Made by a program: the position numbers and the translations under genes
Shown: positions 650 to 53,025 of the stretch, piece after piece
Position numbering within the stretch: position 1 is the stretch's first letter
Layout of the letters: each line of letters opens with the position of its first letter
Notes under the pieces: generated by a model
Told to the model about the DNA's origin: nothing
The model's input: the letters and a program-made list of their open reading frames with translations, nothing else
Databases searched by the model: none
Assembly: GCA_964413715.1 (NCBI GenBank)
Contig: CAYPSN010000002.1
Coordinates: forward strand, 66,850 to 119,874
Direction of reading: 5' to 3'
DNA from: an uncultured Candidatus Saccharibacteria bacterium
Lineage (GTDB): Bacteria > Patescibacteriota > Saccharimonadia > CAILAD01 > JADZBC01
DNA length: 53,025 nt

Positions 650-700
650 CACGTCATCAAATGTGTATTTGATCTGAAGAGTTCAAAAGAACGAAACGTG
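650..700 (+). ncRNA. Type III hammerhead ribozyme (HH8)
   Basis: CACGU-C (cleavage predicted after C655), stem I AUCAAA-UGUGUA-UUUGAU, CUGAAGA, stem II GUUC-AAAA-GAAC, GAAA, CGUG. All invariant core positions present. Small hairpin UGGCC/GGCCA at 609-624. Confidence 0.8.
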
Positions 701-4484: not shown

Positions 4485-5606
4485 CTAACCTAGATAGTCG
4501 CGCAACTTTTTAGCGTCTTTGTGCTTGCGAAGTTTCGCCAAGGCTTTTGCCTCAATCTGGCGAATACGCTCACGAGTAACACCAAACTCTTGGCCTACTT
4601 CTTCGAGCGTGTGGCCACGACCGGTTTCAAGACCAAAGCGCATGCGCAGAATCTTCTGCTCACGCGGTGTTAAAAGCGCCAAGGTTTCGTCAATGTGTTC
4701 TTTGAGTAGCTCGTAGGTTGCCGCTTCTTCAGGACTAACGCTGTCTTCGTCCTGAATAAAGTCACCCAAGCTAGAATCTTCATCCTCACCCACCGTAGCA
4801 TCTAAGCTAGTGGTATCTTGGGAAATCTTGATAATATGATTCACCTTATCGACATCAATTTCGAGCTCCTTGGCCAACTCTTCCGGCAACGGTTCGCGAC
4901 CAAGCTCCATAGTAAGACGGCGCTGGGTACGCACCAACTTGTTGATGGTTTCCACCATGTGAACCGGAATACGAATTACTCTTGCCTGGTCAGCAATCGC
5001 GCGGGTAATGGCCTGTCGAATCCACCACGTTGCATAAGTACTAAACTTAAAGCCCTTGGTGTAGTCGAACTTCTCTACCGCCCTTAGCAAGCCAGTGTTG
5101 CCTTCTTGGATCAAATCTAATAGGTCTAGGCCTCGACCAATGTATTTTTTAGCAATACTAACCACCAAACGCATATTGGCTTCTGCCAACGCGTCCTTGG
5201 CTGCCTTGTCGCCTTTTTCGATCCTTTTTGCTAAGGTAACTTCTTCTTCGGCCGTAATAAGCGGGATCTTACCAATTTCGCGCAAATACAAACGCACCGA
5301 GTCATCGGCAATGTCTTTGAGCGTTGCGTCATTTACGGCGTTTTCGATGTCTTCTTCGGGCTCAGTTTCCCAAATCAGCTTATCTTTCTGGTCAGTCACA
5401 TCAATGCCCTGCTCCATCAGCTTGGAATACAGCTCATCGAGTGCTTCGATGTTTTCTTCTGCATCAGGCACCGCCTGCATAACTTCTTGCTGGGTAACAA
5501 AACCCTGTTCACGACCCTTTGTTAAGAGTCGCTCCACCTCTGGTGTCAGCTCTTGCTTATCGTCCGCTGGACCAGCAGCCGACACAGGCAAATCTTTTTT
5601 TGCCAT
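4485..5606 (-). CDS. rpoD: Primary RNA polymerase sigma factor (sigma70 family)
   Basis: Region 2 [17 protein letters not shown], region 4.2 [24 protein letters not shown]. 373 aa. Confidence 0.95.
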
Positions 5607-34623: not shown

Positions 34624-35906
34624 TGAAGCCGATTATTGAAACACTCTGTGAGCGTCTGGTCAAAGATACTGAAGTCCTCAAATACCAACTTAGCCATACT
34701 ACCAGCCAAGAACTGAGCGGTGGATTCTTAAACAATAAGCTAGGTGGAATTTATCGCCCAATTCAAGCACACAATGCTGCAAGGTTGGCGTATCAAATTG
34801 AGTTTAGTGACGGACAAGTTAGCAAGGGCGGTCTCCCCGCTAGTACTGAAATCGAGCAAATACTGCGGGTTATTCAGCAAGGCAAGCACTCACCTAGTGA
34901 GCCAATCGAGATTGCGCCTAAACAAAAGGTTCCTGCCGTCGAGCTCGTTGATCCAGACCTAAAGGCTAAAATACTACATGATCCGGCCTACGTTAGCACT
35001 AGCGTAAAACAGCTGCAGCAAGACACAGAGTCGAGCGCAATCGAAGACATCGAAGGTGAGATAGAACTTCGCCTTGGCACTACGCGTATCATGAATTCTC
35101 ATGGCCTCGATGTGTCATCCGAAGGCACACGTTACCATGCCTCAGTTGGCCTCAATAGCAGGGTTGGTTATTCGCACAATACGCGGCTGATTAAACAAGC
35201 GACTGGCATACTAAACTATTGTAGTCACTTTGAGCAAATCGCACTCGCTCTCGACAGCAAACCAGCTCAACTCGATTCCGGCACGTATCCAGTATTGTTT
35301 TCCGCTGGAACTGGCTGGGGAATCTTGAGTCAATTTCTGCGCCATAACCTCGACGGCTTCCAACTTAATGCCCGACAGAGTCGCTACACCTTAGACGACT
35401 TTTCTTCCAAGAAGCAAATTGCACACCCAGATTTTAGCTTACACTACGACCAAACATCCCCGATGGACTACCAAAGCTTCAAGTTCGATGGTGAAGGCGT
35501 AACAGCTCAAAAATTCACCCTTATTCAAGATGGTAAACTCACCGCACCTGTCTGCGACCTGAAGTCGGCTCGTCAATTAGGTTTCAAACCAAAATCTTTA
35601 GGTAGCCTAAAGACTAAAGTTGTTCAAGCAAAAACTTATGATGATTTCGTACACAATAATGAAACATTCTTGTTGGTTTTTGGTGTTTTGGGCCTGCATT
35701 CGGTTAACTCAGTAAGTGGTGACTATTCTCTGCCATCAGATAACGTGTTGTTGGTCAGAAATGGCAAAATTGAAGGGCCAATCAATGCAGTTCTCACAGG
35801 CAACTTTTTTGATAATCTGATGGAAACATCAACCCACTTCGTGAATGCATCGCATCTATTTGATTCGCCAGCTCTAACACTTAAGACTCAAGTAACCATA
35901 AAATAA
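34623..35906 (+). CDS. pmbA: PmbA/TldE-family protease partner
   Basis: GTG start overlapping the tldD stop by 1 nt. TldD/PmbA family length and C-terminal pattern. Confidence 0.75.
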   Translation: MKPIIETLCERLVKDTEVLKYQLSHTTSQELSGGFLNNKLGGIYRPIQAHNAARLAYQIEFSDGQVSKGGLPASTEIEQILRVIQQGKHSPSEPIEIAPKQKVPAVELVDPDLKAKILHDPAYVSTSVKQLQQDTESSAIEDIEGEIELRLGTTRIMNSHGLDVSSEGTRYHASVGLNSRVGYSHNTRLIKQATGILNYCSHFEQIALALDSKPAQLDSGTYPVLFSAGTGWGILSQFLRHNLDGFQLNARQSRYTLDDFSSKKQIAHPDFSLHYDQTSPMDYQSFKFDGEGVTAQKFTLIQDGKLTAPVCDLKSARQLGFKPKSLGSLKTKVVQAKTYDDFVHNNETFLLVFGVLGLHSVNSVSGDYSLPSDNVLLVRNGKIEGPINAVLTGNFFDNLMETSTHFVNASHLFDSPALTLKTQVTIK

Positions 35907-35918
35907 TCACAATTGGAG

Positions 35919-35946
35919 AAGGCCCAGAGTCGTAACCCTGGGCCTT
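35919..35946 (+). terminator. Hairpin after pmbA
   Basis: AAGGCCCAG...CTGGGCCTT. Weak U tract. Confidence 0.45.
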
Positions 35947-36091
35947 AAACCCTCCTGCGATGCCGGTCTACAACCAACTCAGATAGCCGTCGCATCGGCT
36001 AGTACACTATCCCCCTGTACTGGGGTCACTGCCATTATGTTGCCTGGCTGCAGTGAGGTGATTCTTTCAAATCTGCCACGGGCCAAGGCCC

Positions 36092-36409
36092 TCAGAACCG
36101 CGTGCTGCACTCCTTGGGGAGCATCAGCACGTCGCCCTTGTTGAACTTCTCCTTGCCGTAGACGCCGCTACGCTGGATGATGAGTCGCCGCCAGGCCTGG
36201 AGCGTCTCGCGCGCCGGTTTGGTCGTCTTGGCGAACTCATCGAGCGTCAGGGGCGTCTGGAGCGTCACCTTGGCCTGGCAGGCGTAGCGGTCGTTCAGCG
36301 AGTTGCCGTTCATGGCGTGGCTGACGGCTCCGCAGCTTGTCAGGACGAAGACGAGGAGCATTGCCGCAGTAACCGCGCGGCGCCGATGAGGGTTGATGTT
36401 GGTGTTCAT
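36092..36409 (-). CDS. GC-rich putative lipoprotein (105 aa)
   Basis: Start moved to MNTNINPHRRR. Signal peptide with lipobox LTSC (AAMLLVFVLTSCGA). Confidence 0.55.
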   Translation of the reverse strand: MNTNINPHRRRAVTAAMLLVFVLTSCGAVSHAMNGNSLNDRYACQAKVTLQTPLTLDEFAKTTKPARETLQAWRRLIIQRSGVYGKEKFNKGDVLMLPKECSTRF

Positions 36410-36798
36410 CTTTGAATGCACATAGATACACTCAAAGACGAACACCACTCACATGCTTCACCCCACCGCAGCACTCATCTACATAAGTGCTCTGGTAGGG
36501 CCACCGAGGATTTCTCCTCGATGGTACTCACCCTCCCGCGATACCGACTAGCTTTTTTTCACTAGTCGACTTCTGTTGCCAGGCCGTCGCTACGACCCCG
36601 GAAACCCTGTTAGGGAGTCCCCACCAAGACCGGCAGATCCGGAGTGAGTCCGAAGAGGACTCGCACCTTCTCCACCGGCGGCGGGACTGGTCCGAAGACC
36701 GTTCCAATTTCCCGTGCGTCGTCACCCGCAAGAACAAGCCAGGGATAACCCCGACTCACCCTTGGGGAACGGCCGCCCGGTGTGCGGTAGCACATCAT
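36410..36798 (-). ncRNA. Structured GC-rich non-coding segment immediately 3' of ssrA (tmRNA-related fragment?)
   Basis: No credible ORF. Many helices. 15-nt exact copy (36570-36584) of a tmRNA segment (36996-37010), flanked by a compensated helix (CGAC/GTCG versus CCGC/GCGG). Confidence 0.4.
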
Positions 36799-36799
36799 C

Positions 36800-37163
36800 G
36801 TGGAGCTGGAGGGAATCGAACCCTCGTCCACCAGGTAGCAAACTTACTCGCTACGACCATTCCTGGTTTTGAACTTTGCAGCAGTTCGAGGGCCAGGTCA
36901 CTTGTACTGTGCTTGCGCGCAGCCAGCTGCCAAGTCTTTCCTTGAAGTCACTGTACTTTCACAGTGTCAGCGGTCTATCCCTGCTGTCTTCTCCGCTTCT
37001 GTTGCCAGGCTGCGGTGAATCGGCCCCGAATCTAAGCTTTTTACGGCCCTTTTCGTAACCTTCGCTATCAGGCGGCGGTTATGAGTTTGCCCTGTTTTAC
37101 GAGTCTGAGCAACTCGGGTCGCAAGTAAGCTAGCTAGTCCCGATGTCGAAACCAGTCAGCCCC
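36800..37163 (-). ncRNA. ssrA: tmRNA (SsrA)
   Basis: 5' GGGGCUGACUGGUUUCGAC, 3' GGACGAGGGUUCGAUUCCCUCCAGCUCCA. Acceptor stem has a G3-U pair. Candidate tag frame GGC AAA CUC AUA ACC GCC GCC UGA UAG. Terminal CCA not fully encoded (CGA). Confidence 0.9.
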
Positions 37164-37172
37164 TAGGGCGCG

Positions 37173-37406
37173 TTACAGATAGCCAGCCAAGGTACGCGCA
37201 TCCTCGGCATCGTGGTGGTCCGACTGAGCGGCGGCACAGGCGTGCCCGGTCTCATGCCCGATGTCGAAACCAGCCTCGAAGATGAGGTACATCGTTTCCA
37301 TCAGCGACAGTCCCTGAGCTCGGGCTTCGACCAACAAGGCCTGAACCGTGAGCTCTACCGCTTCCTCGAAAACTTCTTCCGACATTTCCTCGGGGGTGAT
37401 GGACAT
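37173..37406 (-). CDS. Small acidic hypothetical protein (77 aa)
   Basis: ATG 37406 preceded by GGGAGGAAGG. Stop lies 9 nt before the tmRNA 5' end. Confidence 0.5.
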   Translation of the reverse strand: MSITPEEMSEEVFEEAVELTVQALLVEARAQGLSLMETMYLIFEAGFDIGHETGHACAAAQSDHHDAEDARTLAGYL

Positions 37407-37515
37407 AAGCCTTCCTCCCACGCTATGGAGTTGCGATTCAACTCCCCGGCGGGAGGCATCCGCCTCTTACCTCCGGCTGAGGAGTTGAATGGTGTGCGGC
37501 TTGTAAAAGTGCTCT

Positions 37516-37569
37516 GATAGTTTCGTCGTTTCCGACTCATCAGCCCGGACATACATCCGAGGACTATCC
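37516..37569 (-). ncRNA. Type III hammerhead ribozyme (HH6)
   Basis: Minus strand: GGAUAGU-C, stem I CUCGGA-UGUAUG-UCCGGG, CUGAUGA, stem II GUCG-GAAA-CGAC, GAAA, CUAUC. Cleavage predicted after C at 37562. Confidence 0.8.
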
Positions 37570-38733
37570 ACTCACGAACTCACAATGGAGCTCGCGAGCG
37601 ACCCTGGGGAGCCTCTGCAGGTTTTTTAAACCGTGCAAAGTCTACAACCCAGGGAAGGATTGTCCGGCTTTCACTCGATGGAGTGACCCGGAGCGGCTTA
37701 CCTTCGGCCGCGGCGTGATTGCGTTCGCTTCGGAGGGCACATTGGTTTTCAGGCCGCTGTGTCCGGGGTGACGAAACGCACTTTCAGCTAGTGAAGTTAA
37801 CCCCAGATCATTTGTTGATTTCCTACCGCTCTCGCGGTCGCGCGCCCATGTTGGGCCCAACACGTCGAGGTTTATACTCCTCGCAGGCTGATCTCTTCTC
37901 CTCTTCTGCCGTTATCCTCTTCCCGGGCTTGTTCCGGTCTACGCGGGCCTCCCCTGGGAGGCCAAAGGGCGACTTTACTAGCATCGAATCTGGGAGCTGC
38001 ACACTCGCGTGGCGCTCACCATGAGATGGGGGCTGGTAAAGCTAGGTCAGCTCTTTACCATGTCGGACTTCATACCACGCGTGCAAGCGTAGCCGACTTT
38101 GACCACAGATGCTGGTTTTACCCAGCTTAGGGGGATCCCCCCTGAGCACTCTGCAGCACCCTTATCCTCAGTCGTCTTCTTGGCATCCACCCCGGCCAGG
38201 GCTTCAACCATGCTGCGGGGCTATCCGCAGCTCCCTCTTTTCAGATTGGGCTTGCCAGGCCCAAACCTTGAGGTATGGCCCGACGGCGACTGATTTCCTG
38301 CCCTTTGCCTGAAGCACGTTTGTACGTGATCCGGACTCCCATGAATGGCGGGCAGGTGGCCTTGACTCTTAGCTTGCGGCTTCGAGCTGTACCACCATTC
38401 TTTTCCGATACACCTGCCTTGGCGGGCAGAATATACCACTAACTTCGTCAGCCCCGCCAAGGACCGCGATACTTGCTAAATGCGTTGGATCCTACCAAGA
38501 GGCACACTGTCACAAGCATGGAGATTTAAATGATGCCTATGGCATCACTCTGCAAAACACCGGGAGTAGGTGCGTTGCATATCATCCCTCGCGGGACTGT
38601 CAGGCTCTCCACAGCCAGGGTGCTGGGTGTTCTGTCTTGCTGTGATGTAAATATTTACAGAACCCAGCGCCTTGACTGTTGAGAACCTTTGACGATTATT
38701 TTGTAACGTTCTATGCAGTTGTTATCTGCACTG
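37570..38733 (-). ncRNA. Large (about 1.16 kb) GC-rich ORF-less structured RNA candidate
   Basis: Lies between promoter 38740-38768 and HH6. Only short Arg/Pro/Gly-rich ORFs. Numerous long helices, for example CCUUGGCGGG/CCCGCCAAGG (38413-38461) and CUGGGUUCUGU/ACAGAACACCCAG (38618-38663). Confidence 0.45.
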
Positions 38734-38739
38734 TTGAGT

Positions 38740-38768
38740 ACTATACACATTAGTCTATTTTTTGTCAA
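38740..38768 (-). promoter_or_regulatory. Consensus sigma70 promoter for the ssrA-containing transcript
   Basis: Minus strand TTGACA (38768-38763), 17-nt spacer, TATAGT (38745-38740). Confidence 0.6.
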
Positions 38769-38774
38769 TACTTT

Positions 38775-38803
38775 TTGTCAGTTTTTTTACACTTTTTTAT
38801 AAT
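38775..38803 (+). promoter_or_regulatory. Divergent sigma70-like promoter
   Basis: TTGTCA 38775-38780, 17-nt spacer, TATAAT 38798-38803. Would give a roughly 100-nt AT-rich transcript ending at the 38894-38913 hairpin. Confidence 0.4.
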
Positions 38804-38884
38804 TTTATCTATTGCTAACCTGTTGGAGCATTCGAAAAAGATAAGACTTAATAGCATAAGCATGATAGGTTTTGCCAACTTTTT

Positions 38885-38913
38885 ATAACAAAAAAGACCC
38901 TTAGTCGGGTCTT
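38885..38913 (-). terminator. Intrinsic terminator (strong on the minus strand)
   Basis: AAGACCC-GACUAA-GGGUCUU followed by UUUUGUUAUAAAAAG on the minus strand. Confidence 0.7.
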
Positions 38914-39346
38914 GATTGTGATGATTGCTTTGTGGGTGGTCGGGGTGGTGCGGATCCATGCGGATCCGCACCACCCTCGACCTTATCAACGAACCCCTGC
39001 TGCTTCAACTACGCTTGGACAGCGCGCGCCTAGTTGCCTTGTGGCTTGCGGCGTTTGACAGCATGGAGAGTTGGCCCTGACTTGACCAGGGCATGGGCGA
39101 CCTTGTATTCAGTAGCCCCAACTGCGTTGGTTAACCAACGTGGAGTCGTGGCCTAGATGCCATCTCCCATGTATTTACCTCCTGGTTCGCCCTGGTAAGG
39201 GCTGGATGTGGTGCCCTTCGTTGAGTTCGGGGGAGCGAGCATTGCCCGCTCCCCCTCGCTCCAGCCGCCCCCAACAGGGGGATGTTAGAAGGATTACAGA
39301 CCCTCTCCCATGACTTCCCCCTTGGGTAGATCGGCAACGATAGGCA
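38914..39346 (-). ncRNA. About 430-nt GC-rich ORF-less transcript candidate bounded by a promoter and a terminator
   Basis: Promoter 39353-39381 and terminator 38885-38913. Contains a 14-bp perfect hairpin GGTGGTGCGGATCC/GGATCCGCACCACC (38946-38977). Only spurious-looking ORFs. Confidence 0.5.
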
Positions 39347-39352
39347 CTTAAT

Positions 39353-39393
39353 ATGATATCAGATTGTTTCAAATTTGTCAAATAATATTGACT
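39353..39393 (-). promoter_or_regulatory. Sigma70 promoter within a TGTCAA-N6-TTGAC inverted repeat
   Basis: Minus strand TTGACA (39381-39376), 17-nt spacer, TATCAT (39358-39353). Inverted repeat 39376-39393 directly after the TrmB-like gene stop. Confidence 0.6.
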
Positions 39394-40155
39394 TTATTTT
39401 TTATCCTTAGTCCACGCTAGTTCAAATAGCTGCCTGAGAGCTCCTACGATTTCCTTACTCTCAATAACGATGCCTGCTGAAGATTTACCTTCGCTTCCAT
39501 AAGAAATCAGGAGAGCCCTGTCCTCGTACAAGTTGATGTCTGCCTGAACAGGGCTATTGAGGCGCATTGTTTCCCTCAATAAGCCTTTATCTGACGGCAC
39601 TTCATCCTTAAATGAGTATATAAGTTTACTAGATAGTCTTTTCTTTAAACGATTTTTAGGGCTAGTTTTTTCTATGTCAGGCACAAGACGAGTCACTTCA
39701 TCGTAATTGCTCATAGCGTATATCGTAGAGCCCACTCGAGCTTTTCTCCGAGTGTCCGAGGTGGTACTATTGATGCCCTCAAGGCCTTTGTAAAAACGAA
39801 CCACGGGAGCCTCTCCAGCAGAACCATGCTCCTGCTGCTTCAAACTCGGCATCAGGTTCTTCAGCTCGCTCTTCTTCGTTTCAATACTCGACTTTTGGCT
39901 GTCCAAGTAACGTTCGAGTGCCTCGGGTGGTTCGGCTACGAAAACAGTTTTTTTACCTTCTGTAGACTGGCTTACTAATCCCATTTCGGCTAGTTCATCT
40001 AGTATTACGTAAGTGGTAGCACGGTTAACCTCGGACTGCTGTGCGATCTTTTGTGCACTAGCTGAACCTAGAAAAAGCGCGGCCACGTACACACGTGCCT
40101 GCTTGTCGGCCAGGCCTACAGATTGTAATTTAGCTGCGAGTTCAATAATTTGCAT
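39394..40155 (-). CDS. TrmB-family transcriptional regulator (paralog 1)
   Basis: N-terminal wHTH LGLADKQARVYVAALFLGSASAQKIAQQSEVNRATTYVILDELAEMGLV, a coiled-coil linker and a C-terminal domain. Start moved to MQIIEL (40155). Confidence 0.8.
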   Translation of the reverse strand: MQIIELAAKLQSVGLADKQARVYVAALFLGSASAQKIAQQSEVNRATTYVILDELAEMGLVSQSTEGKKTVFVAEPPEALERYLDSQKSSIETKKSELKNLMPSLKQQEHGSAGEAPVVRFYKGLEGINSTTSDTRRKARVGSTIYAMSNYDEVTRLVPDIEKTSPKNRLKKRLSSKLIYSFKDEVPSDKGLLRETMRLNSPVQADINLYEDRALLISYGSEGKSSAGIVIESKEIVGALRQLFELAWTKDKK

Positions 40156-43119: not shown

Positions 43120-43272
43120 ATGCACGACGATCAAGAGTGGTTCGACAACCGGGACCTCCTCCCCCGCGGAATCATCCTCGGAGTGAGGCCGAAGCCCACG
43201 AACACGCAAAGCAACACGCTGAGCGACGCACTCGAAGACCTGCTGGAGCGGCGCTTCCTGCGCCGACTCTGA
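43120..43272 (+). CDS. Small hypothetical protein (50 aa), first ORF of the operon
   Basis: ATG 43120 follows GGAGG by 5 nt. Sequence MHDDQEWFDNRDLLPRG... Confidence 0.45.
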   Translation: MHDDQEWFDNRDLLPRGIILGVRPKPTNTQSNTLSDALEDLLERRFLRRL

Positions 43273-43316
43273 CGAGGCAACAAGGTAAACGGGGCGGTAC
43301 CTACAAACCCGCCCCC

Positions 43317-43373
43317 CTGACTCGGAGAGTAACGCGCTCTCCCTGACGATGACCGCGCACGGTCGAAAGTCAG
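43317..43373 (+). ncRNA. Type III hammerhead ribozyme (HH1) preceded by a hairpin
   Basis: CUGACU-C (cleavage after 43323), stem I GGAGAG-UAACGCG-CUCUCC, CUGACGA, one extra U, stem II GACCG-CGCA-CGGUC, GAAA, GUCAG. Hairpin GGGGCGG/CCGCCCC at 43291-43315. Confidence 0.8.
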
Positions 43374-43397
43374 CCGCACCTTGAACCAAGGAGAACA

Positions 43398-44003
43398 ATG
43401 AGCACCCCAGCCCTACTGAAAGTCGTCCTGACGGGCGGTCCCTGCGCCGGAAAGACCACGGTCTTCCGCCGCATCGAGCAAGAGTACGGACACCTGGTAA
43501 CGCTGGTGCCCGAAGTAGCCACCATGCTGCTCTCGAGCGGCTACCCCATGCCCGGACGCGACCTCGACTGGTCGCCCGGCTGGCGAGACAGCTTCCAGCG
43601 AGCCATCGCCACGGTCCAGGAAGAGGTAGAGGCGGCCTACGAAATGCGAGCTAAGGAGCGAGGTCACCGCCTCCTCCTGACCGACCGAGGCCTGATGGAC
43701 GGAGCGGCCTACTACGACAGCCGAGCTGAGTTCCTGAGCGCAACCGGAATCGACCATGGCACTGCCCTGGCTCGATACCAGGCGGTCATCCACCTCGAAT
43801 CCGTCGCCATCGCTCAGCCGGAGCTCTACTCGAAGGGCAACAACCCCTTCCGCTTCGAGACACTTGAGGAGGCCATCCCTCTCGAGGCCAAAACCCGAAG
43901 CGCTTGGGCTGGCCACCCACAGCACACCATCCTGGAGGGCGCCGACCTCGACTACAAGGTTAGCGGTACGCTCAGGGTGCTCGCGGCCTACCTGCAGGCA
44001 TGA
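43398..44003 (+). CDS. P-loop NTPase/kinase-like protein (AAA_28/NadR-kinase-like)
   Basis: Walker A GGPCAGKTT. Roughly 200-aa single-domain P-loop protein. RBS AAGGAG. Confidence 0.65.
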   Translation: MSTPALLKVVLTGGPCAGKTTVFRRIEQEYGHLVTLVPEVATMLLSSGYPMPGRDLDWSPGWRDSFQRAIATVQEEVEAAYEMRAKERGHRLLLTDRGLMDGAAYYDSRAEFLSATGIDHGTALARYQAVIHLESVAIAQPELYSKGNNPFRFETLEEAIPLEAKTRSAWAGHPQHTILEGADLDYKVSGTLRVLAAYLQA

Positions 44004-44041
44004 GCAGTGCAAGGTTCCGGGAGGTCCTTTAAAAACCTCCC

Positions 44042-44094
44042 CTGACTCGCGGAGTGAGTGCTCCGCCTGACGAGCCGGAAACGGCGAAAGTCAG
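44042..44094 (+). ncRNA. Type III hammerhead ribozyme (HH2) preceded by a hairpin
   Basis: CUGACU-C (cleavage after 44048), stem I GCGGAG-UGAGUG-CUCCGC, CUGACGA, stem II GCCG-GAAA-CGGC, GAAA, GUCAG. Hairpin GGGAGGU/ACCUCCC at 44019-44041. Confidence 0.85.
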
Positions 44095-44117
44095 TCCGCA
44101 CCTTGAAGGAGGCTTAC

Positions 44118-44696
44118 ATGCCCACTGAACCGAACAACCCTATCGACGAGATCTTCATCTCGGTCGATATCGAGTGCGACGGGGACATCCCCGGCGACTA
44201 CTCGATGCTCAGCATCGGGGCCACTACCCTCGGCAACAGGTACGATCGCGACTTCTACGTCGAACTCCGGCCCATGACCGAACGGTACAACCCCGACAGC
44301 CTGGCAGTAGCCAGCCTGGACCGCACTCGTCTGCTCCGCGAGGGAGTGCCAGCTCAGGTAGCGATGGCTCGGTTTGCAGCCTGGATCGAGGAAGTCCGCG
44401 GACTCCATGGAGACGCCAAAGCGGTGTGTGTCACTCTCAGCGAGTGGGATAACGGCTGGCTCTACTGGTACTTCGTCCACTTCCTGGGCCAAAAGCCCCT
44501 CGGCTTCACCGGCATCGACATCAAGAGCTACTTCATGGGCAAGCATGACCTGAAGGAGTTCGCGGGCACACCCCGAACCGAGATGCTGAAGCACTACCCG
44601 AGTGAGATCGAGCACACGCACAACGCGCTCGACGACGCCCGGGAGCAAGCCGAGATCTTCTGGGCAATGTACCGAGCCCAGCCTCCACAGGCCTAA
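44118..44696 (+). CDS. DEDDh 3'-5' exonuclease (DnaQ-like fold)
   Basis: ExoI SVDIECDG, ExoIII HNALDDAREQA. ATG 44118 after GAAGGAGG. Confidence 0.75.
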   Translation: MPTEPNNPIDEIFISVDIECDGDIPGDYSMLSIGATTLGNRYDRDFYVELRPMTERYNPDSLAVASLDRTRLLREGVPAQVAMARFAAWIEEVRGLHGDAKAVCVTLSEWDNGWLYWYFVHFLGQKPLGFTGIDIKSYFMGKHDLKEFAGTPRTEMLKHYPSEIEHTHNALDDAREQAEIFWAMYRAQPPQA

Positions 44697-44738
44697 GAGA
44701 CACAGAGGTAACCGGGGTGGTACCTACAAACCCGCCCC

Positions 44739-44791
44739 CTGACTCGCGGAGTGAGTGCTCCGCCTGACGAGCCGGAAACGGCGAAAGTCAG
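44739..44791 (+). ncRNA. Type III hammerhead ribozyme (HH3) preceded by a hairpin
   Basis: Ribozyme sequence identical to HH2 (cleavage after 44745). Hairpin GGGGUGG/CCGCCCC at 44714-44738. Confidence 0.85.
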
Positions 44792-44816
44792 TCCGCACCT
44801 TGAACTAAGGAGACCG

Positions 44817-45119
44817 ATGAGAATCGTTCGTCAAGGATCTATCCCGCCCGACCGCAACATCCAGCGAGGAACTTGCAGGCACTGCGGCACAGTGGTGGAA
44901 GCCAACATAACCACTGAGTGCAACCGGCGTACAACGACCAGGGACATTTACACTGATTATGACCCGGATGGACGACCGCCCTACTACTACAGCAAGACTG
45001 TCACGACCGAATACTTTGAGACGGGTTGTCCAGTCTGCTCAAGGCCAATCTGTGTATCCTCGAGGGAAATCTCGAGTACCCATCGGCCGGATGCACCAAA
45101 AGAAAAGTGGAGCATGTAG
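44817..45119 (+). CDS. Small zinc-ribbon-like protein (100 aa)
   Basis: CRHC...CPVC cysteine pairs. ATG 44817 after AAGGAG. Confidence 0.5.
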   Translation: MRIVRQGSIPPDRNIQRGTCRHCGTVVEANITTECNRRTTTRDIYTDYDPDGRPPYYYSKTVTTEYFETGCPVCSRPICVSSREISSTHRPDAPKEKWSM

Positions 45120-45161
45120 GTAGGCGCACAAGGTTCCGGGAGGTCCTTTCAAAACCTCCCC

Positions 45162-45216
45162 CGACTCGGAGAGTAATGCGCTCTCCCTGACGATGACCGC
45201 GCACGGTCGAAAGTCG
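45162..45216 (+). ncRNA. Type III hammerhead ribozyme (HH4) preceded by a hairpin
   Basis: CGACU-C (cleavage after 45167), stem I GGAGAG-UAAUGCG-CUCUCC, CUGACGA, extra U, stem II GACCG-CGCA-CGGUC, GAAA, GUCG. Hairpin GGGAGGU/ACCUCCC at 45138-45160. Confidence 0.8.
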
Positions 45217-45247
45217 GTATACTGTATAATCTACGAAAAGGAGTTGC

Positions 45248-45883
45248 ATGACCGCACAAGTTATTACCATCGATGGAGGCGCTGGCGTAGGTGGCAGCAC
45301 CACGGCCGAAGCACTAAGTAAGGCACTCGGCTGCGAACACCTCAACGTCGGTGAAATCTACCGCGCCCTCACCTTCGAACTGGTTAGCCTCGGCTGGACG
45401 AAGAAGCAGATTATGAGCTCACCCATGCTGGCGGCCGAGCTGGCGGCCGGATTCAAGCTACAGATTGCTAACGGCAGCGTGGCTAGCGTGAATGGTCAAG
45501 ATTGCCAAGGCAAGCTACACGCAGCAGAAATCAGCAAGCTGGTTCCGACTGTTGCGGCCATTCCCGAGATGCGAGCTACCGCCAAGAAGGTAGAGAAGAA
45601 CTTCATTGCAACTCGGCCACTCAGCATCATCGAGGGTCGAGCGGGCGCCTGGAGTATCCCGCAAGCAGTGCTAAAAATCTGGCTGCATTGCGATCCAGAA
45701 ATCGCCGCCAAGCGGCGCGGCTGCACCGTAGCAGAGATCCTGGAGCGCAACCTAGCGGATGCTACACGCGAGCACTCGCCTATGATCAAGCACCCAGATG
45801 CAGTCGCCATCGACACGGGCAAGCTACTCCCGGCCGAGATTGTGCAGCGCATCACGCAGCTCTACCGCGAACTGGCAGAATGA
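45248..45883 (+). CDS. Cytidylate kinase-like P-loop kinase
   Basis: ITIDGGAGVGGST...LNVGEIYRAL resembles the Cmk N-terminus (IDGPxxxGKST...DTGxxYRA). P-loop Lys replaced (GVGGST). TATAAT at 45225-45230 upstream. Confidence 0.6.
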   Translation: MTAQVITIDGGAGVGGSTTAEALSKALGCEHLNVGEIYRALTFELVSLGWTKKQIMSSPMLAAELAAGFKLQIANGSVASVNGQDCQGKLHAAEISKLVPTVAAIPEMRATAKKVEKNFIATRPLSIIEGRAGAWSIPQAVLKIWLHCDPEIAAKRRGCTVAEILERNLADATREHSPMIKHPDAVAIDTGKLLPAEIVQRITQLYRELAE

Positions 45884-45927: not shown

Positions 45928-45977
45928 CGATTCAGCAGATTATGTCTGCTCTGATGAGCCAAGCATGGCGAAAATCG
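45928..45977 (+). ncRNA. Type III hammerhead ribozyme (HH5) preceded by a hairpin
   Basis: CGAUU-C (cleavage after 45933), stem I AGCAGA-UUAUG-UCUGCU, CUGAUGA, stem II GCCA-AGCA-UGGC, GAAA, AUCG. Hairpin GGGGAGU/ACUCUCC at 45903-45925. Confidence 0.85.
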
Positions 45978-52837: not shown

Positions 52838-52851
52838 CTAAATAGTGTGAT

Positions 52852-52904
52852 GCAACTTTCGTCCTTTTGGACTCATCAGAATAACCCGACAGTTATTGAG
52901 TTGC
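52852..52904 (-). ncRNA. Type III hammerhead ribozyme (HH7) preceded by a UUCG-capped hairpin
   Basis: Minus strand: GCAACU-C (C at 52898), stem I AAUAAC-UGUCGG-GUUAUU, CUGAUGA, stem II GUCC-AAAA-GGAC, GAAA, GUUGC. A 10-bp hairpin CACCCCGGGC-UUCG-GCCUGGGGUG at 52905-52928 lies immediately 5' on that strand. Confidence 0.8.
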
Positions 52905-53025
52905 CACCCCAGGCCGAAGCCCGGGGTGAGGAGTTTATGTGGCTTACTCCTGTGCCTGCGTAGCTGGGGTAGCTACTTGTTGTGTTGCGGCTTAGTTGCC
53001 GCTGCTGTCCACGATGACGGGGGTC

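What the first reader, a model, noticed from the sequence alone, without database searches (positions are those of the whole stretch)
37570..38733. About 1.16 kb of GC-rich, ORF-poor, helix-dense sequence: candidate large structured RNA of unknown class
In a genome where genes are otherwise packed within tens of nucleotides of each other, this stretch has only short ORFs rich in Arg, Pro and Gly. None has an RBS, and they occur on both strands, which is typical of non-coding GC-rich DNA. On the minus strand it forms many long helices. Examples are CCUUGGCGGG/CCCGCCAAGG, CUGGGUUCUGU/ACAGAACACCCAG, GAUGCC/GGCAUC and ACCGC-GAGA-GCGGU. It runs from a consensus promoter to a hammerhead. By eye I could not match it to RNase P, group I or II introns, or a riboswitch. 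Size and context next to a tRNA-like gene recall the large ornate RNAs GOLLD and ROOL, but I cannot establish homology without a search.
Basis: partly seen in the sequence, partly recalled or inferred. Interest (0 to 1): 0.75.

Follow-up and report, generated by a model that had tools for sequence, protein, structure and literature searches.

The report
New large structured RNA in Saccharibacteria
The stretch encodes a roughly 1.17-kb non-coding RNA whose sequence and base-pairing are conserved in a small clade of Saccharibacteria, which matches no known RNA family, ends at a self-cleaving hammerhead ribozyme, and therefore looks like a new class of large bacterial RNA with unknown function.

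Summary
Window 37562-38739 (minus strand) has no conserved ORF. It runs from a near-consensus, conserved promoter to a type III hammerhead, and it folds far better than shuffled sequence (z -6.5; opposite strand -3.9).

Syntenic homologues turned up in seven other Saccharibacteria/Patescibacteria lineages. They share:
- the promoter;
- a 5' hairpin domain of about 135 nt;
- a 3' multi-helix core of about 420 nt, with invariant blocks and a hammerhead at its end (truncated in L018).

A central domain is swapped between lineages: 2, about 226, about 280 or 613 nt.

Base-pair covariation exceeds the controls in the 3' core (21 of 106 pairs compensatory, against 9.6 in shuffles and 3-7 in slid controls) and in both central-domain types. 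At the nucleotide level the RNA is more conserved than GroEL or tmRNA.

Rfam 15 gives no hit apart from the hammerhead and the neighbouring tmRNA. In particular there is no hit to GOLLD, ROOL, OLE, RNase P or group I/II introns. The adjacent tmRNA is present in only 2 of 8 lineages.

My reading is a new, lineage-restricted large structured RNA. It is the first element of a hammerhead-punctuated operon and is released by ribozyme cleavage after C37562. Its function is unknown. The main rival reading is a cis-acting leader.

The parts
38740..38781 (-). Promoter. The -35 TTGACA is at 38768-38763 and the -10 TATAGT at 38745-38740. It is preceded by the direct repeat GACAAAAA-n5-GACAAAAA. The TSS is inferred at about 38734.
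   Evidence: The promoter scan scores 11 of 12. The block GACAAAAAGTATTGACAAAAAAT is invariant in the first four lineages aligned. The TTGACA -35 and a TA-rich -10 are also visible in L018 and L028.
38603..38739 (-). 5' domain: a small hairpin (GUGC..GCAU) followed by a long irregular hairpin, CAGUCAAGGCGCUGGGUUCUGU ... ACAGAAC.CCCAGCACCCUGGCUG.
   Evidence: Alignment A4 of 8 lineages is almost invariant. It gives 27 predicted pairs with few changes, so the structure is consistent but only weakly tested.
37990..38602 (-). Central domain, type A (613 nt). This is the variable module: about 280 nt of different sequence in L005/L013/L015, 226 nt in L028, and 2 nt in L004.
   Evidence: Between the window and L018 (94% identical) there are 6 compensatory pairs and 8 changes on one side that keep the pair, against 2 broken pairs out of 200. 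Type B has 16 of 60 pairs with compensatory change, against 7.4 in shuffles. Window and L007 are 100% identical here.
37562..37989 (-). 3' core domain: a multi-helix junction with long-range helices GCUAGU/ACUAGC and GAAG/CUUC and a GAGA-capped hairpin. Blocks invariant in all 8 lineages are UUCGAUGCUAGUAAAGU, CACUAGCU, ACCCCGGA and GGCCUGAAAACC. GAUCAGCCUGCG, GGGGUUAAC, AAAGUGCGUUUCG and GCGAACGCA are invariant in 7 of 8.
   Evidence: Alignment A5 of 8 lineages: 94% of cells are paired, and 21 of 106 pairs show compensatory change against 9.6 +/- 2.1 in shuffles (0 of 500 reach it) and 3-7 in slid controls.
37515..37569 (-). Type III hammerhead ribozyme. Cleavage is predicted after C37562 (GAUAGUC|CUCGG), leaving only 8 nt of the ribozyme match on the large RNA.
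   Evidence: Rfam Hammerhead_3 scores 43.9 bits, E 1.3e-7. An equivalent hit sits at the same position in L004, L005, L007, L013 and L028, and the same sequence is seen in L015. Stem II covaries: GUCG/CGAC, GUCA/UGAC, GCCA/UGGC, GCCG/CGGC. The cleavage site is inferred from the standard hammerhead topology.
37436..37491 (-). Conserved hairpin downstream of the ribozyme (AUUCAACUCC...GGAGUUGAAU), with the conserved loop sequence GAGGCGG. It is followed by a Shine-Dalgarno sequence and the first small ORF.
   Evidence: It is conserved in the window, L007, L005, L013, L015 and L028, with covarying inner stems (GGAGG/CCUCC against GGGGA/UCUCC). It is absent in L004 and deleted in L018.
36092..37406 (-). 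Co-oriented downstream cistrons (context): ORF77 at 37173-37406, tmRNA at 36798-37163, a 62-aa ORF at 36610-36798, and a 105-aa lipoprotein gene at 36092-36409 that resembles LysM by eye.
   Evidence: The lipoprotein gene follows the RNA in all 8 lineages. No terminator was predicted between the RNA and these genes.

Best explanation
This is the gene for a previously undescribed large structured non-coding RNA, restricted to a small clade of Saccharibacteria (Patescibacteria).

- Transcription. It starts at a strong sigma-70-type promoter (TSS about 38734, minus strand).
- Folding. The transcript forms a conserved 5' hairpin domain, a lineage-specific central expansion (613 nt here) and a conserved 3' multi-helix core closed by long-range helices.
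- Processing. A type III hammerhead immediately downstream cleaves after C37562. That releases an RNA of about 1.17 kb with a 2',3'-cyclic phosphate end. The downstream polycistronic RNA (small ORFs, tmRNA, lipoprotein gene) is left with a 5'-OH.
- Function. The released RNA then acts on its own as a stable folded RNA. The most likely role is a scaffold or RNP component, or a self-assembling 'ornate' RNA. The invariant junction segments and the conserved purine-rich AGAGGAG loop would be the functional surface.

Shown: conservation, non-coding nature, strand, covarying structure, promoter and ribozyme motifs, and modular architecture.

Inferred: transcription itself, the cleavage position, release of the RNA, and any trans-acting role.
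For: - Conservation beyond neighbouring genes. Window against L007: the RNA is 95% identical, against 84% for GroES/EL and 91.6% for tmRNA, while PmbA is only 58% identical at the amino-acid level. Window against L005/L013/L015: the 3' core is 83-87% identical, against 69-76% for flanking genes.
- Covariation. 3' core: 21 of 106 compensatory pairs against 9.6 in shuffles (0 of 500 reach it) and 3-7 in slid controls. Type-B central domain: 16 of 60 against 7.4. Type-A central domain: 6 against 2.0, with 99.7% of cells paired.
- Test against a structure predicted from the window sequence alone. For L018, 28 changed pairs are kept and 16 broken, against 13-17 kept and 28-33 broken in slid controls.
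- Strand. Many conserved G-U pairs, a stronger z-score, and the orientation of promoter and ribozyme all point to the minus strand.
- Non-coding. No conserved ORF and no Pfam signal.
- Strain variation. The only differences between same-species contigs across 12-21 kb lie inside this RNA. They include a compensatory C-G to U-A change and keep the hairpins intact.
- Promoter and hammerhead. Both are conserved across lineages.
Against: - There is no expression data, so transcription, cleavage and release are all inferred.
- Only 8 lineages are available, all from one small clade, and the statistics are not tree-aware.
- The 5' domain and much of the type-A central domain hardly vary, so their helices are untested.
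- The RNA is always co-oriented with downstream ORFs and no terminator was predicted between them. That fits a cis-acting leader equally well.
- In L018 the hammerhead is truncated by a deletion, and in L007 a core U is a C, so release by cleavage is not universally required.
- Hammerheads precede many ORFs in this genome, so this one may serve the downstream cistron rather than the RNA.
- High nucleotide identity could partly reflect recombination between lineages rather than selection.
Confidence: 0.6

Rival explanations
1. It is a giant cis-acting leader. The structured RNA would control transcription read-through, processing or stability of the downstream small-protein and lipoprotein operon, with no independent trans function.
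For: It lies directly upstream of the lipoprotein gene and in the same orientation in all 8 lineages. In L004 the lipoprotein start codon sits about 23 nt after the end of the hammerhead. No terminator was predicted between the RNA and the ORFs. In L018 the ribozyme is lost, so the RNA stays fused to the mRNA.
Against: At 0.5-1.2 kb with a multi-junction core, it is far larger than known bacterial leaders. An intact hammerhead separates it from the mRNA in 7 of 8 lineages. The cistrons between the RNA and the lipoprotein gene are freely swapped (ORF77, tmRNA, acidic peptide) while the RNA is kept. The other hammerhead-punctuated operon in the window needs no such leader.
Confidence: 0.2
2. It is a divergent member of a known large RNA family: GOLLD, ROOL, OLE, HEARO, raiA, RNase P RNA, or a group I or II intron.
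For: Its size and ornate folding resemble these RNAs. A tmRNA lies next to it in the window and in L007. GOLLD and ROOL are often near tRNAs (PMC5737381).
Against: All 4227 Rfam 15 models were scanned. The only matches in the locus are the hammerhead and the tmRNA, even at E<=10 over 3 kb, and the same holds for six homologous loci. The tmRNA adjacency is not conserved. There are no phage genes or phage/plasmid matches. The RNA starts at a promoter and interrupts no gene, so it is not an intron.
Confidence: 0.03
3. It is non-functional DNA: a decayed pseudogene or a GC-rich fragment acquired horizontally, for example from a high-GC host.
For: The whole island 35907-38739 is GC-rich (56.8% against 49.2%), and so are its protein genes (lipoprotein gene 63%). 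The short ORFs are rich in Arg, Pro and Gly.
Against: It is more conserved than GroEL across lineages. Compensatory changes exceed the controls. There are long invariant blocks, no protein similarity, and synteny is kept in 8 lineages whose PmbA is only 56-63% identical.
Confidence: 0.03
4. It is a selfish or mobile RNA-linked element: a DNA copy of a viroid-like or Obelisk-like agent, or a cassette that spreads by recombination. The central domain would be the mobile part.
For: A 985-nt block (37737-38720) is 100% identical between the window and L007, while the flanks are about 85% identical. L002 carries L018-type SNPs. The central module is swapped between lineages. A type III hammerhead is present, and the size is about 1.16 kb.
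Against: It occupies a fixed chromosomal position between PmbA and TrmB in all lineages. There is no second ribozyme at the 5' end. The predicted fold is branched rather than rod-like. There is no ORF longer than 79 aa on the RNA strand, no repeats or extra copies, and no IMG/VR hit beyond chance matches. The identical block could also come from homologous recombination at a conserved gene, or from co-assembly of co-occurring species.
Confidence: 0.05

Closest known systems
ROOL and GOLLD RNAs (large ornate bacterial RNAs; Weinberg et al. 2017, PMC5737381; cryo-EM in PMC12286853)
   Same: It is a bacterial non-coding RNA of 500 nt or more with many helices and multistem junctions. It has its own conserved sequence blocks, an unknown function, and sometimes lies next to a tRNA-like gene.
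   Different: There is no covariance-model match. It occurs in a narrow Saccharibacteria clade rather than in several phyla or in phages, and there is no prophage context. Its 3' end is made by a hammerhead, it is the first element of a protein-coding operon, and it carries a replaceable central domain of 2-613 nt.
OLE RNA (ornate, large, extremophilic)
   Same: Its core size is comparable (about 550-600 nt), its nucleotide conservation is very high, it is lineage-restricted, and it is genetically linked to genes for small or membrane proteins.
   Different: There is no Rfam match. The phylum differs, no OapA/B/C-like partners were identified, and there is a hammerhead at the 3' end.
Type III hammerhead ribozymes in bacterial operons (Rfam RF00008)
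   Same: The 3' boundary element has the complete catalytic core (CUGAUGA ... GAAA), three stems and an open stem III. It covaries across lineages.
   Different: The score (43.9 bits) is below the curated gathering score of 48.5. Here the ribozyme delimits a large non-coding RNA, and it is one of about 8 hammerhead cores in 53 kb, which is an unusual density.
Expansion segments and intervening sequences of rRNA and RNase P RNA
   Same: A conserved core tolerates lineage-specific insertions of hundreds of nucleotides at one fixed site (between the 5' hairpin and the UUCGAUGCUAGUAAAGU junction).
   Different: The core is not rRNA or RNase P RNA by Rfam. The insertions themselves show covariation and are exchanged between lineages.

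Membership tests
GOLLD / ROOL | A match to the family covariance model (conserved junctions and pseudoknots) | tested here: not met
   There is no hit at the gathering threshold over the whole window, none at E<=10 over 36500-39500, and none in the homologous loci.
GOLLD / ROOL | Frequent location near tRNAs and in prophages | tested here: not met
   A tmRNA is adjacent only in the window and L007, and a mini tRNA-like domain in L028/L029. The neighbours are PmbA/TldD, TrmB and a lipoprotein gene, not phage genes. blastn against phage and plasmid records finds no match.
OLE, HEARO, raiA, RNase P RNA, group I and group II introns | A match to the respective Rfam covariance model | tested here: not met
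   None is listed at E<=10. The RNA also begins at a promoter and interrupts no gene, which argues against an intron.
Hammerhead ribozyme, type III (for the 3' boundary element 37515-37569) | Catalytic core C3-A9 and G12-A14, an H17 cleavage-site nucleotide, and three helices with open stem III | tested here: met
   The alignment to RF00008 spans the full model, 1-54. The core reads CUGAUGA..GAAA with C at position 17. Stems I-III covary across lineages.
Hammerhead ribozyme, type III | A score at or above Rfam's gathering threshold (48.5 bits) | tested here: not met
   The score is 43.9 bits with E 1.3e-7, and the orthologues score 37.6-44 bits. The element is accepted on E-value plus conservation, not on the curated cutoff.
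Hammerhead ribozyme, type III | Self-cleavage activity | not testable with these tools
   This needs an in vitro transcription and cleavage assay.
Viroid-like / Obelisk-like elements | A circular RNA with a rod-like fold, an Oblin-type ORF, and no chromosomal DNA copy | tested here: not met
   The RNA is chromosomally encoded, syntenic and promoter-driven. The predicted fold is branched. The longest RNA-strand ORF is 79 aa and is not conserved. Circularity itself cannot be tested here.
Protein-coding gene or pseudogene | A conserved reading frame or similarity to a protein family | tested here: not met
   There is no Pfam hit above cutoff for 9 ORFs. The longest stretch open in six lineages is 52 codons, and 34 or fewer across the most conserved block.

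The most novel reading that the evidence does not exclude
This is a new class of large 'ornate' bacterial RNA, the first reported for the candidate phyla radiation. It has a core of about 550 nt, conserved to a degree that exceeds the tmRNA and GroEL comparisons made here. It also carries a plug-in central domain that is exchanged between co-occurring Saccharibacteria. The RNA is matured by a hammerhead in a genome unusually dense in hammerheads. It would carry out a sophisticated function of its own, such as catalysis, RNP scaffolding or homo-oligomeric assembly, possibly tied to the cell envelope or the epibiotic lifestyle.
Probability: 0.5. Interest if true: 0.8.

Novelty: categorically new. 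Interest (0 to 1): 0.72.

Why it matters
Bacterial non-coding RNAs longer than 500 nt with complex conserved folds are very rare. Weinberg et al. [quoted passage not shown] Most of the well-studied examples proved to be ribozymes, RNP cores or, recently, self-assembling cages (PMC12286853).

No such RNA turned up in my literature searches for Saccharibacteria or other CPR bacteria. These organisms have tiny genomes, so 1.2 kb of conserved non-coding sequence is costly.

The locus also offers a natural experiment: a conserved core carrying four different central modules. It further shows hammerhead ribozymes used as routine operon punctuation. Both are directly testable in metatranscriptomes and in vitro.

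Tried and rejected
- blastn of 35900-39400 against phage and plasmid records found no match.
- A search for homologues of ORF77 returned only the protein itself. A homologue was later seen by eye in L035.
- A PmbA-based scan of GTDB genomes returned nothing.
- DNA pattern scans of IMG/VR and JGI metagenomes returned nothing or chance hits. L011, L012, L014 and L031-L034 are unrelated GC-rich sequences.
- The JGI-derived contig L018 matches the first pattern but was not returned by the metagenome scan. The collections are therefore incomplete, and absence from them is weak evidence.
- Literature searches for Saccharibacteria, CPR or Patescibacteria combined with hammerhead, ncRNA or structured RNA found nothing relevant.
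- I considered 5'/3' end pairing (ACUC/GAGU). It is not consistently supported across lineages, so I dropped it.
- I looked for a tetraloop-receptor motif (UAUGG/CCUAAG) in the central domain. The pieces fall inside local hairpins, so I dropped that too.
- A Pfam PDH_N hit (E 0.0055, 16.7 bits against a cutoff of 26.5) lies on a plus-strand ORF. I treated it as chance.

Full report
**What is at the coordinates**

Window 35907-39393 is an island with no long ORFs, lying between a PmbA/TldD pair and a TrmB-family regulator. Rfam 15 at gathering thresholds finds only a tmRNA (36798-37163, minus strand, 104.6 bits) and a tRNA-Ser elsewhere in the window. A permissive scan of 36500-39500 adds one credible hit, a type III hammerhead at 37569-37515 on the minus strand (43.9 bits, E 1.3e-7, below the gathering score of 48.5). 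It finds nothing for GOLLD, ROOL, OLE, HEARO, raiA, RNase P or group I/II introns, even at E<=10.

A near-consensus promoter, TTGACA-17-TATAGT, lies on the minus strand at 38768-38740. The standard type III topology places cleavage after C37562 (GAUAGUC|CUCGG), so the mature RNA would be about 38734-37562, roughly 1.17 kb. This position is inferred.

The stretch is 55.4% GC against 49.2% for the rest of the window. The RNA strand folds to -484.7 kcal/mol against -415.9 +/- 10.6 for dinucleotide shuffles (z -6.5). The opposite strand gives z -3.9.

**It does not code for protein**

All ORFs in the interval are 101 aa or shorter and occur on both strands. Nine of them give no Pfam hit above cutoff. 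Across six homologues, no frame on either strand stays open for more than 52 codons. Across the most conserved block the limit is 34 codons.

**Homologues**

The flanking PmbA protein has only five relatives in the 5.8-billion-protein collection, at 56-63% identity. Their contigs, contigs found through the downstream lipoprotein, and one DNA-pattern scan of GTDB genomes gave syntenic loci from seven further lineages:
- L007;
- L005 (= L010, titled 'Patescibacteria group bacterium');
- L013 (titled 'Candidatus Saccharibacteria');
- L015;
- L004;
- L018 (L019-L026 are fragments of the same sequence, 99.8-100% identical where compared);
- L028.

No match exists in phage or plasmid records. Pattern scans of IMG/VR and JGI metagenomes returned nothing or chance hits.

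**Architecture**

Seven of the eight lineages share all of the following; L018 lacks the intact hammerhead and the downstream hairpin:
- the promoter;
- a 5' domain of about 135 nt, dominated by a long irregular hairpin;
- a fixed junction sequence, UUCGAUGCUAGUAAAGU;
- a 3' core of about 375-435 nt, with the blocks CACUAGCU, ACCCCGGA and GGCCUGAAAACC invariant in all eight lineages, and GAUCAGCCUGCG, GGGGUUAAC, AAAGUGCGUUUCG and GCGAACGCA invariant in seven of eight;
- a type III hammerhead, usually followed by a conserved hairpin.

Between the 5' domain and the junction lies a replaceable central domain:
- 613 nt in the window, L007 and L018;
- about 280 nt of different sequence in L005, L013 and L015;
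- 226 nt in L028;
- 2 nt in L004.

The family therefore spans about 0.5 to 1.2 kb, and the window carries the largest form.

**Evidence for selected RNA structure**

- 3' core. On the 8-lineage MAFFT alignment, the RNAalifold consensus has 106 pairs and 94% of cells are paired. Twenty-one pairs show compensatory double changes, against 9.6 +/- 2.1 in column shuffles (0 of 500 reach the observed value) and 3-7 when the partners are slid by 1-3 columns. Covarying pairs include the GAGA-capped hairpin ACCGC/GCGGU (GC:4, AU:4) and the long-range helix GAAG/CUUC (AU:4, GC:4). That helix stacks next to the invariant long-range helix GCUAGU/ACUAGC.
- Type-B central domain. Sixteen of 60 pairs are compensatory, against 7.4 in shuffles.
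- Type-A central domain. The window and L018 are 94% identical. Six pairs change on both sides, eight on one side while keeping the pair, and only two break. That gives 99.7% of cells paired, with slid controls showing 0-1 compensatory pairs.
- Test against the window-only MFE structure. This structure is not informed by the homologues. For L018, 28 changed pairs are kept and 16 broken, against 13-17 kept and 28-33 broken for slid structures.
- Strand. Many conserved G-U pairs identify the minus strand as the folded one.

Caveats: only eight lineages from one clade are available, the tests are not tree-aware, and the 5' domain is too invariant to test.

**Conservation and recombination**

Between the window and L007, PmbA is 58% identical at the amino-acid level. 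GroES/EL is 84% identical at the nucleotide level and the tmRNA 91.6%, while the RNA locus is 95% over 1556 nt. Against L005, L013 and L015 the 3' core is 83-87% identical where neighbouring genes are 69-76%.

Part of this is recombination rather than selection. A 985-nt block (37737-38720) is identical between the window and L007, while both flanks are about 85% identical. Both lineages occur in the same sample, ERZ27309396.

Among same-species contigs, the only differences across 12-21 kb lie inside this RNA. The L002 cluster at 38112-38162 reproduces the L018 allele and keeps three adjacent hairpins intact. It includes a C-G to U-A compensatory pair.

Ten of the blocks holding contigs that carry the L018-type lipoprotein gene have nothing longer than 2 kb, and eight of the ten places shown are contigs shorter than 3 kb. 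Several of these short contigs break inside the RNA. Sequences shared between co-occurring genomes typically break assemblies in this way. Co-assembly could also inflate the identical block.

**Operon context**

The RNA is the first element of a co-oriented unit. After the hammerhead and hairpin come a Shine-Dalgarno sequence and a variable set of small cistrons. The unit always ends with a 105-111-aa lipoprotein gene, which resembles LysM by eye.
- In the window the intervening cistrons are ORF77, a full tmRNA and a 62-aa ORF.
- L005, L013, L015 and L018 have a 52-aa acidic peptide.
- L028 has an unrelated 82-aa ORF, an 82-nt tRNA-like fragment of tmRNA and the acidic peptide.
- In L004 the lipoprotein start codon sits about 23 nt after the end of the hammerhead.

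A second hammerhead precedes the lipoprotein gene in L013, L028, L029 and L035. tmRNA adjacency is therefore not a conserved property of the RNA.

The hammerhead is also not specific to this RNA. The window contains eight hammerhead cores against 0.54 expected by chance. In a second GC-rich operon (43.3-45.3 kb), each ORF is preceded by a cassette of hairpin, hammerhead and Shine-Dalgarno sequence.

**Interpretation**

The best-supported reading is a new, lineage-restricted large structured RNA, transcribed from its own strong promoter and released from the downstream mRNA by hammerhead cleavage (confidence about 0.6). That it is a conserved, structured, non-coding RNA is well supported. That it acts in trans, and what it does, are inferred.

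The main rival is a giant cis-acting leader of the lipoprotein operon (about 0.2). Constant linkage and the absence of a predicted terminator favour this reading. Size, the intervening ribozyme and the free turnover of the cistrons in between count against it.

Membership of GOLLD, ROOL or any other Rfam family fails the covariance-model test. Pseudogene and viroid-like or Obelisk-like readings fail on conservation, synteny, predicted fold and the absence of an ORF.

**Novelty**

Nothing in Rfam 15 or the searchable literature describes this RNA. The closest analogues in kind are ROOL, GOLLD and OLE (PMC5737381, PMC12286853). It shares size and complexity with them but has no detectable homology to any of them.

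Noticed in passing
window 674-696(+), 43343-43368(+), 44067-44089(+), 44764-44786(+), 45187-45212(+), 45951-45973(+), 52857-52879(-), plus 37521-37543(-): The 53-kb window holds eight hammerhead catalytic-core matches (CUGANGA..CGAAA) against 0.54 expected by chance. Rfam confirms 44041-44095 and 44738-44792 as Hammerhead_3 (39.6 bits). This Saccharibacteria lineage appears unusually rich in type III hammerheads.
   Followed up: partly
window 43270-45250 (+): A second GC-rich operon (about 59% GC) of small kinase-like ORFs (AAA_28, cytidylate kinase). Each ORF is preceded by a repeated cassette of about 100 nt: a hairpin, a type III hammerhead, then a Shine-Dalgarno sequence and start codon. 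This looks like ribozyme punctuation of a polycistronic transcript.
   Followed up: partly
L028 4461-4542, L029 167-248; window 36798-37163: Where the window and L007 have a full 366-nt tmRNA inside this operon, L028 and L029 have only an 82-nt piece. It matches the 5' and 3' ends of the tmRNA model (the tRNA-like domain) and sits between small ORFs. ARAGORN does not call the window tmRNA, although Rfam scores it at 104.6 bits.
   Followed up: partly
window 37173-37406 (-) and 36610-36798 (-): ORF77 has a strong Shine-Dalgarno sequence and a clear homologue in L035 (..GMDLGHEMGHFCAQ..DARALAGYL). A 62-aa ORF that starts at the last bases of the tmRNA is also conserved in L035 (..PWLVLAGDDA..). 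Both look like real small proteins with no known family.
   Followed up: partly
L005 12089-12247, L013, L015, L018 4647-4805, L007, L028; window 36569-36600: A conserved acidic peptide of 48-52 aa (..WETDEDPED..GPPNPRRR) lies between the RNA and the lipoprotein gene in most lineages. In the window only a 32-nt remnant is alignable.
   Followed up: partly
L013 1608-1663, L028 4885-4941, L029 662-718, L035 ~590-650; window ~36470-36500: A second type III hammerhead sits immediately upstream of the lipoprotein gene in four lineages. The RNA between the two ribozymes would then carry 5'-OH and 2',3'-cyclic-phosphate ends. In the window this ribozyme looks degenerate (GUAGAUGAG..).
   Followed up: partly
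L018 ~4605-4625: In the L018 lineage a deletion joins CTGATGAGTC directly to GAATCGCAAC. It removes stem II and the 3' half of the hammerhead together with the downstream hairpin, while the large RNA itself stays intact.
   Followed up: no
window 37737-38720 vs L007; window 38112-38162 vs L002/L018: A 985-nt block is 100% identical between two lineages whose PmbA is only 58% identical, and a strain variant carries the allele of a third lineage. This points to recombination between lineages at this locus, or to a co-assembly artefact.
   Followed up: partly
window 38895-39381 (-): A separate unit of about 450 nt lies between the TrmB gene and the RNA promoter. It has its own near-consensus promoter (39381-39353) and an intrinsic terminator (38913-38894), and contains a 45-nt palindrome (38938-38982). 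Only its 3' end is conserved in other lineages. It may be another non-coding RNA or a small-ORF unit.
   Followed up: no
window 52851-52995 vs L007 21077-21221: A 145-nt block is 100% identical between lineages. By eye it contains a perfect type III hammerhead on the minus strand (GCAACUC..CUGAUGAGUCCAAAAGGACGAAAGUUGC). In L007 it lies just upstream of groES-groEL. Rfam did not list it at E<=0.1.
   Followed up: partly
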